Assembly (NCBI RefSeq): GCF_049337375.1
Contig: NZ_JBMPIV010000001.1
Length of the DNA stretch: 64,000 bases
Reading direction: 5' to 3' (one strand)
From: Nannocystis pusilla
Lineage (GTDB): Bacteria > Myxococcota_A > Polyangia > Nannocystales > Nannocystaceae
In this document: positions 5,773-63,741 of the stretch, one piece after another
Layout of the letters: the number at the start of each line of letters is the position of its first letter
How positions within the stretch are numbered: the stretch's first letter is position 1
Program-made: the position numbers and the translations under genes
The notes under the pieces: model-generated
What the model was told of the DNA's origin: nothing
The model's input: only the letters and a program-made list of their open reading frames with translations
Database searches by the model: none

Positions 5773-5856
5773 GCGGGAGGACATGTCCGCGGCGGCATGT
5801 TCGGAAGGGCATGTCTGCATGGGCATGTCCGGAAAGACATGCCCCTGCAGCCAGCC

Positions 5857-6594
5857 TCAGCGGTTGTCGAGCGCGGTCCGGCGGAAGGACGCGCACCCGC
5901 CGGCCGACGGGGCGCCCGGCGTGGCGAAGCACGGGATGCCCGCGTCCGGCCCGTCGACGAGGACGTTGCAGCGCCAGCTCCAGCCGTCGCCGACGGCGAC
6001 GTCGTCGGGGAAGTTCGAGACGAGCCGGAACGTCGCGCGCTGGGCCGGCGGCAAGGTCGTGACCTCGCGCTCGTCGCGGTCCTCGGGGTCGAGGATGACG
6101 TTGCCGCCCGCGGGCGCGAAGCCGACGAGGCTGACGTCGTGGAGCGCCAGCGGCACCTCGCAGCCGTTGTGCAGCTCCACGACGGCCCGCGGCGGGGCGC
6201 CGCGGATCGCCCGCAGCTCGACGCCGAGGCAGTTCACGACCCGGTGGCGCTCCTCCTCCGCGAACTGGCGCTCCACCTCGCCCCGCCGCGCCTCGGCGGC
6301 GCGGTCGTCGAGCACGACCGCGACGATGTAGCCGCCCGCCAGCAGCACGTGCATGACGACGGGCCCCCAGGTGCGCCGGCCGACCCACAGCATGAAGAAG
6401 GTCGTCAACAGCGCGTAGGCGACGAGGATCTCGAGCGTGAAGACGGCGGCGAGGCCGAGGAGAACGGATTCACCGCGCGGCAGGCCGAGCAGGACCTCGC
6501 CGAACACGTAGAGGTAGAGGATGACCAGCGCCACGAGGGCCAGGCCGTGGAGCTGCCAGGCGCGACGCGTGTCGCGGCGGTCGGGCGCGGTCAC
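5857..6594 (-). CDS. Membrane-anchored hypothetical protein (2-3 TM helices plus a soluble domain)
   Basis: Hydrophobic helices (LALVALVILYLYVF, LLGLAAVFTLEILVAYALL) are followed by a domain of normal composition. The GTG start overlaps the stop of the upstream lipoprotein gene (GTGA). Confidence 0.65.
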   Translation of the reverse strand: MTAPDRRDTRRAWQLHGLALVALVILYLYVFGEVLLGLPRGESVLLGLAAVFTLEILVAYALLTTFFMLWVGRRTWGPVVMHVLLAGGYIVAVVLDDRAAEARRGEVERQFAEEERHRVVNCLGVELRAIRGAPPRAVVELHNGCEVPLALHDVSLVGFAPAGGNVILDPEDRDEREVTTLPPAQRATFRLVSNFPDDVAVGDGWSWRCNVLVDGPDAGIPCFATPGAPSAGGCASFRRTALDNR

Positions 6595-7235
6595 TGCGGC
6601 GGCGGGGCGGCCGCCAGCGCGTTGCGGAACTCGGGGGTCTGGGCCAGCTTGACCGAGCCGTCGAGGGTGGCGTCGCCGAAGGCCTGCAGGAAGTTGCTCT
6701 CCTCCTGGCTGCGGCCCCAGCGGCTGCTCTTGCCGGCGATCGGGCCCTGCCACAGCGTCGTGCTGTTGCGGTCGATGAGCCAGCCCTGGGCCATCAGCGC
6801 GGCCTGGTAGGTGTTGCCCTCGACGATCCAGAACTGGTCGAGCTGCAGCTGCAGGGTGTGCGTCGCGGCCTGCGGATCGGCGGTGACCGGGAAGCCGAGC
6901 GCGGCGAGCTCCTTGGCGAACACGTTGCGCACGTACTCGGTCGGGACCTGGCCGCCGGCGGCGTTGTAGACCGGCAGGTCGGGGTTGGCGTCCTCGCTGA
7001 CCCCGAGCAGATGCGGATCGGTCACCTGCCGCTTGTCGACGATCTGGGCGATGAAGATGAGGGTGCCCGGGGGGACCGCCGCGAGCCCCGCGACCTTCGA
7101 CGGGTCGGCCTTCTCGCTCGGCGAATAGACCAGCGGGAAGGAGATGATGTCGGGGGACGAGGCGCAGGCGCCTGCGGTCAGCGCGGCGGAGAGGAGGCCG
7201 CAGGCGAGGAGCGAGGAGCGAGCGCGGTGCTGCAT
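6591..7235 (-). CDS. Lipoprotein, hypothetical
   Basis: It has a signal peptide with a lipobox (LTAGAC) and well-balanced composition. It is in an operon with the gene below. Confidence 0.8.
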   Translation of the reverse strand: MQHRARSSLLACGLLSAALTAGACASSPDIISFPLVYSPSEKADPSKVAGLAAVPPGTLIFIAQIVDKRQVTDPHLLGVSEDANPDLPVYNAAGGQVPTEYVRNVFAKELAALGFPVTADPQAATHTLQLQLDQFWIVEGNTYQAALMAQGWLIDRNSTTLWQGPIAGKSSRWGRSQEESNFLQAFGDATLDGSVKLAQTPEFRNALAAAPPPQ

Positions 7236-7435
7236 GGCGGCGTCACAGTAGCACCCCGCGCCGGGCCCGGCGACGCAGCCCGCCGCAGCCGCAGGCAGTG
7301 CAAACGGTGACGCCGATCACCGCGCGCCGCGGCGGGCGCGCAGGCGAACGCAACTGCGGTTAACAACGTTCAAAAGCCCGCCAGGGGCCGATCGCGGCCG
7401 GCTGCGTGCTGCAGACAAGCAGAGCGTGCAGGGGT

Positions 7436-62043: not shown

Positions 62044-62243
62044 GCGCGATCCCGCTCCGGGCGCCTGCGTGGCCGCCCGAGGGCGCTAGTGCAGGACTGG
62101 GGTCGGCTGACCCAAAGAGCAGGCGCCAAAATTCATGCGCAGCGGCACGGCCCGCGCGCTCGGGCGAGGCCGCCCGGGCCGGGGGCCGCGTGCGCCAGGG
62201 TGAGAACGGGACGGACAGGTGTTACAGTGCGGCCCCGAACCCC

Positions 62244-63533
62244 ATGAAGCACGCGCAGGACGAGCTGGTCTGGATCGACGGGACGGGGGCGGCGCATCCG
62301 CTGGGCGAGGTCGCCACGCAGCGGATGCGCACCCGCGAAGGCGCGTTCCGGGTCATGCCGTCCCCGCGGCACCTCGTGTTCATGCGCTACGTCGGCGCCG
62401 ACGGCCGGCGCGACCGGGAGGACGGCGCGGTGGTCCGGATCGCCGGCGAGATCACGGGGCCCGGGGCGATGGCCGACGTGATCGCCCTGCTGGCGCAGGT
62501 CGGCTGGCGCGGCGAGCTGGTGGTGCAGGACTCGGAGCACTCGCGCAGCCTGTTCTTCGAGCACGGCTCGATCGTCGGCGTGCAGTCGGACGCGGGCGAC
62601 GAGCTGCTCGGCAACATCGCCTACCGCTTCGGCGTGGTCCACGAGGAGGTCCTCGGCGACGTGCTGATCCGGGCCCGCAAGACCGGCGAGCGGTTCGGCG
62701 TGGCCGCGGTGGCGATGGGCGCCCTCACCGAAGAGCAGGTGCTGAGCCTGCTCGGGCGCCAGGTCGAGGAGGTCGTGTTCTCGGTGCTGATGGCCGACGA
62801 CGGCCTTTACGCGTTCCTCGACGGCTACGAGGACTCGCGCCTGCCGTTCCGCCAGGTCCACAGCGCGACGTCGTTGCTGATGCACCTGATCGTGCGCCTC
62901 GACGGCATCCGCTACTTCCGCCCGTGGATCCCGTCGTCGCAGTACATCCCGAAGAAGCGGCCGGGCGCGCTGGCCCCGGGCAACGAGGTGATGCCGCTGT
63001 GGAACGCGATCGACGGGACCCAGAGCGTCGAGGCGCTCGGCCGCTCGACCGGGCTCGGCGAGTTCCAGGTCACGGAGATGCTGTTCCAGCTGACGCAGTC
63101 GCAGCACGTGATCATCCTGCCGCCGCGGCTGCGCGGCGGGGCGGCCGAGGCGGTCGAGCTGGCCAACACGGCGCTGCGGGCGATCCACCAGCGCGCCGAC
63201 ATGGCCGGCCGCGGCACCGTGTTCCGCAACGCGATGGCCGGGTTCGCCCGCGGCTCCTACGACGACCTGTTCCGCGGGGCAGGTCCGTTCGAGCACGGCG
63301 GCTTCAACGGGCAGATGATCGACCGCAACGCCAGCCAGACCTGCCGCGCCCTCGGCGGCGAGCCCGAGGTGCTGGTCCGCGAGATGATGTACGACTACGT
63401 GGCGTTCGCCCTGCTGTCGTGCGGCGCGTCGATCGGCAAGGCCGACGAGCAGGCCCTGAGCCGCGAGGTCGAGCCGCTGCTGGCCAAGCTGCGCCCCGCG
63501 AGCCAGTCGGGGATGTTCCGCCTCAACAAGTGA
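62244..63533 (+). CDS. DUF4388 (PATAN-like) domain protein
   Basis: DVIALLAQVGWRGELVVQDSEHSRSLFFEHGSIVGVQSD…LGNI matches the DUF4388 pattern. A second similar repeat is present (…QVEEVVFSVLMADDGLYAF). Confidence 0.7.
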   Translation: MKHAQDELVWIDGTGAAHPLGEVATQRMRTREGAFRVMPSPRHLVFMRYVGADGRRDREDGAVVRIAGEITGPGAMADVIALLAQVGWRGELVVQDSEHSRSLFFEHGSIVGVQSDAGDELLGNIAYRFGVVHEEVLGDVLIRARKTGERFGVAAVAMGALTEEQVLSLLGRQVEEVVFSVLMADDGLYAFLDGYEDSRLPFRQVHSATSLLMHLIVRLDGIRYFRPWIPSSQYIPKKRPGALAPGNEVMPLWNAIDGTQSVEALGRSTGLGEFQVTEMLFQLTQSQHVIILPPRLRGGAAEAVELANTALRAIHQRADMAGRGTVFRNAMAGFARGSYDDLFRGAGPFEHGGFNGQMIDRNASQTCRALGGEPEVLVREMMYDYVAFALLSCGASIGKADEQALSREVEPLLAKLRPASQSGMFRLNK

Positions 63534-63741
63534 GCCGCGGCGTCGACGGCGACCGCAAATGTGCACACCCCCGCCGATCACGGGATCGGCGAGTCGTAGA
63601 CGTTGCCCTCGATGATCGGGTCCGGATGGTCGAGGGTCCACGGGCCGTCGCCGTGGCCGAAGCGCGCCCACTTCGGCGCGGACCGATCGAGCATGTCCAT
63701 GCGGACATGTTCAAGAAGACCTGGCCGATCGATCATGACTC

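What the first reader, a model, noticed from the sequence alone, without database searches (positions are those of the whole stretch)
5781..63740. Dispersed family of AT-containing palindromes (core GGACATGTCC), often as 14-15-bp tandem iterons flanked by CGAAGG/GAAAGG, with more than 20 loci
The exact 10-mer GGACATGTCC occurs at least 5 times. My estimate for a 70% GC sequence of this length is about 0.05 expected occurrences. Dozens of 1-2-mismatch variants (GGGCATGTCC, GGACATGTTC, GGACAGGTCC, GGCCATGTCC) also cluster in short arrays. Examples are 5781-5850, 9601-9900, 12386-12450, 16061-16135, 16975-17070, 18440-18480, 21361-21510, 30091-30130, 35421-35540, 36421-36460, 39586-39710, 41151-41400, 45531-45600, 55501, 56391-56450, 58821-59000, 60101-60300, 60381-60410 and 63691-63740. 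They sit between convergent genes, between divergent genes, and over start codons (ACATGTCC read as Met-Ser), so they are not simply promoters or terminators. The spacing and symmetry look like iterons for a dimeric DNA-binding protein, or a MITE/REP-like mobile palindrome family. A few copies appear in-frame inside coding regions (see the separate finding). They also generate most of the spurious small ORFs that read TCP..GHV.
Basis: seen in the sequence. Interest (0 to 1): 0.8.

Follow-up and report, generated by a model that had tools for sequence, protein, structure and literature searches.

The report
Nannocystis-specific stem-loop repeats at gene ends
The GGACATGTCC repeats are real and belong to a previously undescribed, Nannocystis-specific family of short hairpin-forming repeats that sit just after stop codons, mostly between convergent genes, so they resemble REP elements or terminator stem-loops and not iterons or promoter sites.

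Summary
GGACATGTCC occurs 5 times (0.09 expected). Copies with at most 1 mismatch occur 30 times (1.7 expected). CATG-to-CATG spacing spikes at 14, 28, 42 and 56 bp.

The 14-nt period is a 10-nt arm plus a 4-nt loop. Adjacent units covary as inverted repeats, not direct repeats. Stems often extend into locus-specific flanks. Compensated variants exist (GGACATGGCC/GGCCATGTCC; core CAGG/CCTG). Between orthologues, arms are about 95% conserved and the 4-nt spacers about 74%.

The elements mark gene 3' ends. Density is 8.4/kb in convergent spacers, 1.8 in tandem, 0.7 in divergent and 0.2 in CDS. They lie a median 20-35 nt after a stop codon. In co-directional spacers, 71 of 82 arrays sit nearer the upstream stop than the downstream start.

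A scan of 185,579 species' genomes found the perfect dimer in 103 places. Of these, 98 are in Nannocystis/Nannocystaceae records, 2 in an unclassified Myxococcales MAG and 3 in unrelated genomes.

Arrays keep position and register between close species but gain, lose and resize units.

Only about 11% carry a U-tract. No RAYT transposase gene was found. A G.U versus A.C strand test was inconclusive. The best reading is a REP-like 3'-end stem-loop family, probably bidirectional terminators or mRNA 3' protectors. Iteron and MITE readings are rejected.

The parts
5777..5846 (.). Array of 5 units in 14-nt register between convergent genes 4792-5772(+) and 5857-6594(-). It begins 5 nt after the (+) stop. 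Units 2/3 and 4/5 pair as hairpins.
   Evidence: RNA fold -44.1 kcal/mol, z = -4.0. The orthologue in L106 keeps the register and 4 of 5 CATG cores.
12377..12435 (.). Array of 3 units plus 1 degenerate unit between convergent genes. It contains a 15-bp perfect stem, CGAACGGCCATGTCC-tgcg-GGACATGGCCGTTCG, at 12377-12410, with compensated non-palindromic arms.
   Evidence: (z = -5.7). Present with 4 intact units in the 97% relative L109. Absent in the 83% relatives L110/L111.
16065..16134 (.). Array of 4 units plus 1 degenerate unit, ending at the stop codon of gene 16134-16847(-), in a convergent spacer.
   Evidence: The L106 orthologue has GGACAGGC-tcac-GCCTGTCC, a compensated core change.
16985..17069 (.). 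A CAGG-variant unit (16985) plus 2 units (17042-17069), about 35-50 nt downstream of the stop of gene 17101-18198(-).
18438..18465 (.). One strong and one weak unit in a divergent spacer (minority context).
21357..21412 (.). Array of 4 units overlapping the 5' end of gene 20363-21376(-), followed by a duplicated gene-3'-end fragment.
21454..21509 (.). Array of 3 units plus 1 degenerate unit, ending at the stop codon of gene 21508-23832(-).
30089..30116 (.). Direct doublet ATGGACATGTTC x2. It pairs with two G.U pairs on the + strand only. It lies 18-45 nt upstream of the start of gene 29067-30071(-), so it is atypical.
35426..35453 (-). 12-bp perfect hairpin ACGGACATGGCC-cgaa-GGCCATGTCCGT with compensated arms. 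On the minus strand it reads stem, UUCG loop, then GUUUUACUUUGG. It is the only copy that meets the canonical intrinsic-terminator consensus.
   Evidence: (z = -5.5). Conserved in N. bainbridge L101.
35496..35534 (.). Perfect dimer GGACATGTCC-gcag-GGACATGTCC with the stem extended to about 17 bp by unique flanks. It starts 12 nt after the stop of lipoprotein gene 35539-35868(-).
   Evidence: (z = -5.7).
36434..36461 (.). Doublet (one weak unit, one strong) ending 6 nt from the stop of gene 36467-36916(-).
39598..39611 (.). Single CAGG-core variant unit (GGACAGGTCC) in a convergent spacer, inside a 62-bp tandem duplication.
58824..58862 (.). Unit GGACATGTCT followed by the compensated core-variant hairpin GACAGGTCC-tcgg-GGACCTGTC.
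60106..60293 (.). Loose cluster of about 7 units, several of them degenerate, starting right after the stop of gene 58986-60110(+).
63687..63714 (.). Hairpin GAGCATGTCC-atgc-GGACATGTTC in a convergent spacer.
   Evidence: z = -3.5.
20757..20784 (.). Two units inside the CDS of the PEGA-domain gene 20363-21376(-). This is one of the rare intragenic copies.

Best explanation
What it is (shown): the window comes from a Nannocystis species (myxobacteria, about 72% GC). The repeats are a genus-specific family of short stem-loop elements. The basic unit is a 10-nt arm (consensus GGACATGTCC, itself self-complementary) plus a 4-nt variable spacer. Two neighbouring arms pair to make a 10-bp stem with a 4-nt loop, often lengthened by complementary unique flanks.

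How arrays arise (inferred): because the arm is its own reverse complement, a simple 14-nt tandem duplication by replication slippage immediately creates another hairpin. This would explain the phased 14-nt arrays of 2-7 units and their rapid change in unit number between related species.

Where they sit (shown): 10-50 nt downstream of stop codons, above all in the short spacers between convergent genes.

What they do (inferred): they act in the transcript as 3'-end stem-loops on both strands. They would stop or pause RNA polymerase and/or block 3'-to-5' exonucleases, the role REP elements and bidirectional terminators play elsewhere. This genome has few canonical U-tract terminators.

How the family reached thousands of sites is not established.
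For: Real and periodic.

Hairpin, not iteron:
- Inverted covariation z = 4.7 against direct z = 0.3, and 9 perfect inverted pairs with non-palindromic arms.
- The hairpin scheme exceeds 500 of 500 shuffles (covariation 0.166 against 0.138 +/- 0.007). The per-unit palindrome scheme does not.
- Stems extend by at least 3 bp into locus-specific flanks in 22 of 108 doublets, against 1 of 108 in the control.
- There are 12 compensated CAGG/CCTG core pairs (L106; window 58841).
- In orthologous intergenic units, arms are 95-96% identical and spacers 74%.
- Strong folds with z from -4 to -6.8.

3'-end placement:
- Density per kb is 8.4 convergent, 1.8 tandem, 0.7 divergent and 0.2 CDS.
- In tandem spacers 71 of 82 arrays are nearer the upstream stop (median 35 nt) than the downstream start (median 302 nt), p = 7e-12. 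In convergent spacers the median gap from stop to array is 20 nt.
- An independent metagenome sample gave 71 convergent, 12 tandem and 7 CDS.
- 6 of 11 convergent spacers in the window are occupied.

Other points:
- 6 of 15 motif-blind perfect intergenic hairpins are family members, including the 3 longest.
- Canonical terminators are at chance level in two of three 20-kb segments (4 against 4.1; 4 against 4.0) and modestly above it in the third (10 against 4.2 +/- 2.2).
- Lineage specificity: 98 of 103 perfect dimers in 185,579 species' genomes are in Nannocystis/Nannocystaceae records, plus 2 in an unclassified Myxococcales MAG.
- Slippage dynamics: unit number differs at orthologous spacers, and L126 carries a run of tandem GGGCATGTCC-tgcg units (four overlapping pattern matches 28 nt apart at 10-117).
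Against: - Only about 11-12% of array flanks have a T-rich tract (background 3.5%). Only one copy passes the terminator consensus. Termination is therefore not demonstrated.
- The test for RNA-level selection (G.U tolerated and A.C not, on the sense strand) gave 26:14 (p = 0.08) in genomes and 6:6 or 12:12 in metagenomes. Nothing here distinguishes RNA hairpins from DNA-level structure.
- Covariation and stem extension could come from template-switch 'quasipalindrome correction' during replication and not from selection. This is inference from established mutational mechanisms.
- Why thousands of independent 3'-end hairpins share one arm sequence is unexplained.
- A minority of copies lie in divergent spacers, in 5' regions (30089-30116) or in CDS.
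- No expression data were available.
Confidence: 0.6

Rival explanations
1. Duplex-DNA binding sites. Each palindromic 10-mer, or each 24-bp doublet, is bound as double-stranded DNA by a dimeric or tetrameric protein. Candidates are a nucleoid-associated protein, DNA gyrase (as at E. coli BIMEs, relieving supercoils between convergent genes) or a roadblock-type termination factor. The 14-bp phasing would reflect cooperative binding.
For: - The arm consensus is a perfect palindrome with a strict 14-bp phase, even across degenerate units.
- There is no RNA-strand asymmetry in G.U against A.C.
- The strongest enrichment is between convergent genes, where positive supercoils accumulate.
- Whole arms are conserved between orthologues.
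- Most copies lack a U-tract.
Against: - Non-palindromic arms are matched by reverse-complement partners, which a protein reading a fixed sequence would not require.
- The per-unit palindrome scheme shows no significant covariation, while the inter-arm scheme does.
- Stems extend into unrelated flanking sequence.
- No candidate protein was identified.
Confidence: 0.15
2. A purely selfish, non-autonomous mobile hairpin of the REP/REPIN type, copied by a single-copy Y1 (RAYT-like) transposase encoded elsewhere in the genome. The 3'-end location would reflect only where insertions are tolerated.
For: - High copy number, lineage specificity, extragenic hairpin form and presence/absence differences at orthologous spacers between species.
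- REPs in other bacteria show the same placement, and A/T-flanked doublets co-opted as terminators (PMC3337134).
Against: - No RAYT-like gene was found in about 1.77 Mb of held Nannocystis-type DNA, using a probe verified as PDB 4ER8 (candidates dismissed). This is weak evidence because RAYTs are single-copy.
- There are no conserved asymmetric REP flanks and no REPIN doublet architecture. The 35426-35529 segment folds as three separate hairpins.
- The tight distance to stop codons (median 20-35 nt) is closer than tolerance alone predicts.
- Array growth in exact 14-nt register looks like slippage, not transposition.
Confidence: 0.15
3. A DNA-uptake-sequence-like motif. This would be a short genus-specific word enriched by biased uptake and recombination during natural transformation, tolerated mainly as inverted pairs in terminators, as with Neisseria DUS and Pasteurellaceae USS.
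For: - A genus-specific 10-mer at roughly one unit per 1-2 kb.
- Occurrence as inverted pairs downstream of genes.
- No mobile-element structure.
Against: - One-mismatch variants outnumber exact copies 25 to 5, and arms drift with compensation, so the word itself is not strongly preserved.
- Density in CDS is 40-fold lower than in convergent spacers.
- Tandem phased arrays are not a DUS/USS feature. Competence in Nannocystis is not known to me (own knowledge).
Confidence: 0.04

Closest known systems
REP / BIME elements of Enterobacteria and REP/REPIN families of Pseudomonas and Stenotrophomonas
   Same: Short (about 20-40 nt) extragenic imperfect palindromes, with hundreds to thousands of copies and lineage-specific sequence. 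They cluster in arrays, lie at gene 3' ends and between convergent genes, and can form hairpins in ssDNA or RNA. Some are flanked by A/T runs and co-opted as terminators (PMC3337134; placement here).
   Different: - Here the arm itself is a perfect palindrome, so orientation is undefined.
- Arrays are head-to-tail in an exact 14-nt phase, not alternating REPs with defined linkers.
- There are no conserved asymmetric 5'/3' REP flanks and no REPIN doublet with a folding spacer.
- No RAYT was found.
Bidirectional intrinsic (Rho-independent) terminators between convergent genes
   Same: A single GC-rich stem-loop fills a short convergent spacer, 10-30 nt from each stop codon. Some copies carry an A-tract upstream and a T-tract downstream (for example L075 gaaaaGG...CCtttt; window 35426-35453).
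   Different: Only about 11% have a T-rich tail. Ordinary terminators do not share one stem sequence genome-wide or form phased tandem arrays.
Neisseria DUS / Haemophilus USS inverted pairs in terminators
   Same: A genus-specific 10-mer word that occurs as inverted pairs forming stem-loops downstream of genes.
   Different: The word here is degenerate and evolves by compensatory change. It is nearly excluded from CDS and forms tandem arrays. No link to DNA uptake is known.
Plasmid/origin iterons
   Same: Short tandem repeats with fixed spacing.
   Different: Iterons are direct repeats clustered at one origin next to a rep gene. These units covary as inverted repeats and are dispersed at gene 3' ends across the chromosome.

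Membership tests
REP / REPIN-RAYT system | Short extragenic imperfect palindromes, high copy number, lineage-specific | tested here: met
   24 of 31 strong units are intergenic. The element is a 24-nt hairpin. 98 of 103 perfect dimers are in Nannocystis/Nannocystaceae records, plus 2 in an unclassified Myxococcales MAG.
REP / REPIN-RAYT system | REP has conserved asymmetric 5' and 3' flanking sequences around the palindrome, giving it an orientation (PMC3337134) | tested here: not met
   Flanks outside the arms are locus-specific. The only bias is weak A before and T after the arms. The arm consensus is a perfect palindrome.
REP / REPIN-RAYT system | REPIN: two inverted REPs separated by a spacer that folds into one long hairpin | tested here: not met
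   The best candidate, 35418-35537, folds as three independent stem-loops in both the window and N. bainbridge. Arrays are head-to-tail at a 14-nt period.
REP / REPIN-RAYT system | A cognate single-copy RAYT (Y1 HUH transposase) gene flanked by the repeats | tested here: inconclusive
   tblastn with E. coli TnpA-REP (probe identical to PDB 4ER8_A) found nothing real in about 1.77 Mb. Weak hits were dismissed. A motif regex was also negative. Only a small fraction of any one genome was sampled, and whole genomes could not be searched.
Canonical intrinsic terminator | GC-rich stem-loop | tested here: met
   Stems of 10-17 bp, -16 to -44 kcal/mol, z from -3.5 to -6.8.
Canonical intrinsic terminator | U-rich tract immediately 3' of the stem | tested here: not met
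   T-rich tails occur at 8 of 65 (tandem) and 26 of 230 (convergent) flanks, against 3.5% background. Only 35453-35426(-) passes the consensus scan.
Canonical intrinsic terminator | Located just downstream of a stop codon, on the transcribed strand | tested here: met
   Median 20-35 nt from the stop. 71 of 82 arrays are nearer the upstream stop than the downstream start.
Canonical intrinsic terminator | Transcripts actually end there | not testable with these tools
   No RNA-seq or Term-seq data were available.
Iterons | Direct repeats bound individually by an initiator, clustered at a replication origin beside a rep gene | tested here: not met
   Direct-repeat covariation z = 0.3 against inverted z = 4.7. 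The arrays are dispersed over at least 12 sites in 64 kb at gene 3' ends. The neighbours are ordinary genes.
MITE | Defined element of 50-500 bp with terminal inverted repeats and target-site duplication | tested here: not met
   Nothing is conserved beyond the 14-nt units. Flanks are inverted complements of each other, not direct duplications.
DNA uptake sequences (DUS/USS) | Exact word strongly preserved and common in coding as well as non-coding DNA | tested here: not met
   Exact to one-mismatch ratio is 5:25. CDS density is 0.21/kb against 8.4/kb in convergent spacers.
CRISPR array | Repeats of 24-48 nt separated by unique spacers of 26-72 nt | tested here: not met
   Spacers are 4 nt and units are 10 nt. 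Rfam finds only two tRNAs in the window.

The most novel reading that the evidence does not exclude
The shared, self-complementary arm is not just a legacy of copying. It is the address of a Nannocystis-specific factor that recognises the GGACATGTCC stem in RNA, ssDNA or duplex form. Candidates are a dedicated termination or 3'-end-protection protein, or a domesticated HUH/RAYT-like enzyme. In that case Nannocystis would use a sequence-addressed, protein-assisted bidirectional terminator system in place of U-tract terminators. The 14-nt phased arrays would tune its strength.
Probability: 0.12. Interest if true: 0.65.

Novelty: new variant of a known kind. Interest (0 to 1): 0.38.

Why it matters
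Little is known about how transcripts end in very GC-rich bacteria such as myxobacteria, where classical U-tract terminators are scarce. In this window they are at or only modestly above chance level. A genus-wide family of stop-codon-proximal stem-loops gives a concrete and easily mapped candidate for 3'-end formation in Nannocystis, a genus mined for natural products and in need of genetic parts.

Practical uses:
- The motif is a clean taxonomic marker. Nearly all perfect dimers in about 185,000 species' genomes are in this lineage.
- It warns annotators that the ATG-containing repeats spawn spurious ORFs and false starts.
- It is a source of assembly and alignment ambiguity.

Conceptually, a self-complementary arm that lets plain tandem slippage create new hairpins is a neat, testable route by which a REP-like family can expand without a transposase.

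Tried and rejected
1. First covariation test, treating every adjacent unit pair as partners. 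It gave only a modest excess (53 against 32-36 compensated). I replaced it with permutation tests and a test on discriminating positions, and with the count of structure pairs.
2. Tetraloop idea (UUCG/GNRA loops). Rejected as a general feature because spacers are very diverse.
3. G.U against A.C strand-asymmetry test for RNA-level selection. It was suggestive in genome loci (26:14, p = 0.08). An independent metagenome sample gave 6:6 and 12:12. Overall it is inconclusive, and most copies are in convergent spacers where the test is uninformative.
4. RAYT search. The regex found nothing. The tblastn weak hits in L037 and L215 fall inside unrelated genes. The probe had no Pfam hit but is identical to PDB 4ER8_A.
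5. REPIN-like long fold of 35418-35537. Rejected, because it forms three separate hairpins.
6. Per-position conservation using all orthologous units. This was dominated by CDS copies, as shown by codon periodicity. I redid it for intergenic units only (n = 35, partly redundant). The core is not more conserved than the rest of the arm.
7. Literature. There is no bacterial description of the motif or of Nannocystis REPs. All hits for the 10-mer are the eukaryotic p53 half-site (RRRCWWGYYY), which is a coincidental match.
8. My first GC3 gene caller truncated genes. I replaced it with a log-odds caller. It still leaves some gaps, for example the small lipoprotein gene 35539-35868 found by hand.

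Full report
**Observation**

The exact 10-mer GGACATGTCC occurs five times in the window, at 5779, 21387, 21456, 35504 and 35518. Dinucleotide-preserving shuffles give 0.09. Allowing one mismatch gives 30 sites against 1.69 expected, with a maximum of 5 in any shuffle. The window is 69-78% GC throughout.

Distances between CATG tetramers show sharp peaks at 14 (20 pairs), 28 (11), 42 (8) and 56 (4), with almost nothing at adjacent distances. Twelve arrays hold two to seven CATG cores in strict 14-nt register.

A PWM built from arrayed units has the consensus [A][A/C]GGACATGTCC[G/T][C/T]. It finds 31 sites at 14 bits or more, against 0.35 in shuffles. Of these, 24 are in the 22% of the window that is non-coding by a GC3-based gene call.

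Three were overstated: 9601-9900 (only degenerate inner-half palindromes), 41151-41400 (one unit) and 60381-60410 (none).

**Source organism and distribution**

I scanned one genome from each of 185,579 bacterial and archaeal species for GGACATGTCC-N4-GGACATGTCC. This returned 103 stretches. Ninety-eight are in Nannocystis or Nannocystaceae records (N. bainbridge 18, RBIL2 13, N. radixulma 12, N. pusilla 11, N. punicea 10, N. exedens 6, plus MAGs). Two more are in an unclassified Myxococcales MAG with similar GC content. The remaining 3 are single doublets in unrelated genomes, about what chance allows in 596 Gb.

Window 32968-39547 is about 91% identical to N. bainbridge BB15-2 (L101). The window therefore comes from a related Nannocystis species.

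Rfam recognises only two tRNAs in the window. The neighbouring genes are ordinary myxobacterial genes: a histidine kinase, a HEAT-repeat protein, trypsin-like and PAE-family hydrolases, and a PEGA protein.

**Anatomy: hairpins, not iterons**

The key observation came from 35428-35451, GGACATGGCC-cgaa-GGCCATGTCC. Neither unit is a palindrome, but the two are exact reverse complements. The same arrangement is kept in N. bainbridge. The 14-nt period is therefore a 10-nt stem arm plus a 4-nt loop.

Evidence across the window and the genome loci:
- Among 208 adjacent unit pairs (perfect dimers excluded), inverted-repeat matching exceeds a permutation null by z = 4.7, while direct-repeat matching does not (z = 0.3). 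Nine pairs are perfect inverted repeats with non-palindromic arms.
- On 150 unselected doublets, the inter-arm pairing scheme beats all 500 column shuffles for percent paired, double-sided changes and covariation score (0.166 against 0.138 +/- 0.007). The scheme in which each unit pairs with itself is reached by 33-65 of 500 shuffles.
- In isolated doublets the stem continues into locus-specific flanks by at least 3 bp in 22 of 108 cases, against 1 of 108 in a slid control. Examples are gaaaa/tttc, ccgcgg/ccgcgg and atcgca/tgcgat.
- Twelve distinct pairs carry compensated core changes (CAGG in one arm, CCTG in the other). These include window 58841-58862 and the L106 orthologue of the 16065 array.
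- In orthologous intergenic units, arms are 95-96% identical while the 4-nt spacers are 74% identical (small, partly redundant sample).
- Predicted RNA or DNA folds are strong, from -16 to -44 kcal/mol with z from -3.5 to -6.8.
- A motif-blind census of perfect intergenic stems of at least 8 bp in the window finds 15. Six are family members, including the three longest.

The spacers are highly diverse, so no particular tetraloop is favoured.

**Placement**

Over about 860 kb of Nannocystis DNA, the density of strong units is 8.4/kb in convergent spacers, 1.8/kb in co-directional spacers, 0.7/kb in divergent spacers and 0.2/kb in CDS.

In co-directional spacers, 71 of 82 arrays lie nearer the upstream stop (median 35 nt) than the downstream start (median 302 nt), p = 7e-12. 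In convergent spacers the median gap from stop to array is 20 nt, and the array fills about a third of the spacer.

An independent sample came from a metagenome scan with an imperfect-arm pattern. It returned 120 loci, 100 of them high-GC, and gave 71 convergent, 12 tandem and 7 CDS contexts. Many hairpins sat 6-20 nt from both stop codons.

In the window, 6 of 11 convergent spacers carry units, against 8 of 20 tandem and 3 of 10 divergent spacers. The uncalled stretch next to the strongest doublets contains a small lipoprotein gene on the minus strand (35539-35868). So 35426-35529 is also a convergent spacer.

These are 3'-end elements.

**Are they canonical terminators?**

Mostly not. T-rich tails follow only 8 of 65 and 26 of 230 flanks, against 3.5% background. 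The consensus scan flags just one copy: 35453-35426 on the minus strand, with a stem, a UUCG loop and GUUUUACUUUGG. Terminator-like sites overall are at chance level in two of the three 20-kb segments (4 against 4.1; 4 against 4.0) and somewhat above it in the third (10 against 4.2 +/- 2.2). There is a weak A-before, T-after bias next to the arms.

**RNA or DNA?**

If the hairpin acts in RNA, G.U should be tolerated on the sense strand and A.C should not. Genome loci gave 26:14 (p = 0.08). The metagenome sample, designed so that every hit is informative, gave 6:6 (strict) and 12:12 (relaxed). This is inconclusive. Most copies lie where both strands are transcribed.

**Evolutionary dynamics**

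I retrieved orthologous regions through a PAE-family gene.
- The 5777-5846 array is kept in the same register in L106 (85% protein identity). Four of five CATG cores are retained and there is one extra unit.
- The 12380 array has four intact units in a 97% relative (L109) and two degenerate units in L106. In L110/L111 (83%) it is replaced by unrelated sequence.
- L104 has a different hairpin at that site.
- L126 carries a run of tandem GGGCATGTCC-tgcg units, seen as four overlapping pattern matches 28 nt apart at 10-117.
- The 35426-35529 spacer folds into three consecutive stem-loops in both the window and N. bainbridge. The middle, non-family hairpin differs in sequence but is retained as structure.

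Arrays therefore persist in place but expand, contract, decay and are replaced on the scale of species divergence.

**Mechanism proposed**

Shown: a lineage-specific family of 10+4+10 stem-loops placed just after stop codons.

Inferred:
(i) They act as 3'-end RNA stem-loops on both strands, in termination, pausing or exonuclease protection, as REPs and bidirectional terminators do elsewhere.
(ii) Because the arm is self-complementary, a 14-nt slippage duplication yields a direct repeat that is also an inverted repeat. Arrays can therefore grow by slippage and still fold.
(iii) How the family spread to many loci is unknown.

One caveat is that compensatory-looking changes and stem extension could arise from template-switch correction of quasipalindromes and not from selection.

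**Comparison with known systems**

The closest known kind is REP/BIME/REPIN. Using the defining features in PMC3337134, the extragenic, palindromic, high-copy and lineage-specific criteria are met. The asymmetric REP flanks and the REPIN doublet architecture are not met.

Association with a RAYT could not be shown. A probe verified as identical to PDB 4ER8_A found nothing real in about 1.77 Mb. RAYTs are single-copy, though, and whole genomes could not be searched.

I therefore say it works like a REP family but do not file it as a REP/RAYT member. Iteron, MITE, CRISPR and DUS/USS definitions each fail on at least one tested feature. The identity of the 10-mer with the p53 half-site consensus is a coincidence. 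No description of this family was found in the searchable literature.

**Verdict**

This is a real, strongly non-random and previously undescribed repeat family. It belongs to a familiar class, REP-like 3'-end stem-loops, with an unusual architecture: a self-complementary arm and 14-nt phased arrays. It is of moderate interest, useful for annotation and for studying termination in GC-rich myxobacteria, but not categorically new.

Noticed in passing
window 4373-4644: A 60/69-bp tandem repeat (about 3.7 and 2.4 copies) lies in a 900-bp stretch with no called gene. Each copy contains GGGCCTGTGC-gaag-GGACAGGTCG, a CCTG/CAGG core-variant doublet of the same family embedded in a longer repeat unit.
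   Followed up: partly
window 21385-21440 and 21482-21540: A local duplication of about 55 bp carries both a repeat unit and a gene 3' end. The minus strand reads ...KEELGG* and ...KEKIGG*. A fragment of the C-terminus of gene 21508-23832 therefore seems to have been copied along with its array.
   Followed up: no
window 39576-39695: A 62-bp tandem duplication (1.9 copies, 87% match) in a convergent spacer contains the variant unit GGACAGG(T/C)CC.
   Followed up: no
window 30089-30116: This is a perfect direct doublet, ATGGACATGTTC x2, just upstream of the start of gene 29067-30071(-). It pairs (with G.U) only on the antisense (+) strand. It is atypical for the family and might be a recent slippage product or have a different role.
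   Followed up: partly
window 35539-35868 (-): A small unannotated lipoprotein gene (signal peptide with LMSGC lipobox, Pro/Ala/Thr-rich tail). My GC3 caller missed it and it has no Pfam match.
   Followed up: partly
window 10207-10410: Long 9/27-nt coding repeats (CGACCACGA...) near the start of the 701-aa DUF4215-type protein gene 10234-12339. This gene is absent from the orthologous position in L106.
   Followed up: no
window 29605-29686: A perfect 24-bp x 3.4 tandem repeat (GGCGCAGGCGCGAGCTCGGTCGCA) inside or near gene 29067-30071.
   Followed up: no
window 54906-54989 and 56113-56296: Hexamer repeats (GTTATT x3, CCGTTG x8.7) and a 58-bp x 3.1 tandem repeat lie in the largest gene-free stretch of the window (54885-56567).
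   Followed up: no
window 41200-41400: An unusually AT-rich divergent spacer with CGTCGATT repeats and two of the three sigma-70-like promoter matches found in the 60 kb scanned.
   Followed up: no
L126 10-117 (metagenome contig Ga0075152_10011507): A run of tandem GGGCATGTCC-tgcg units at a contig end, seen as four overlapping pattern matches 28 nt apart. It looks like a very recent in-register expansion and may be a cause of assembly breakage.
   Followed up: partly
L045 3534-3712 and L086 6895-7602: Several copies of a non-palindromic variant, AAGGACCTGTCCCA, are spaced 80-530 bp apart in orthologous regions of Nannocystis sp. RBIL2 and N. pusilla. This may be a related sub-family or a coding repeat.
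   Followed up: no
L110/L111 about 4040-4190: At the spacer orthologous to window 12340-12463, these 83% relatives carry an unrelated tandem repeat of about 48 bp (CGCGACCGCGTTCCGAGTGGTTCGCCGCG...) in place of the CATG units.
   Followed up: no
L101 2344-2727: N. bainbridge has about 340 bp of extra sequence between the gene end and the first hairpin, compared with window 35392-35425.
   Followed up: no
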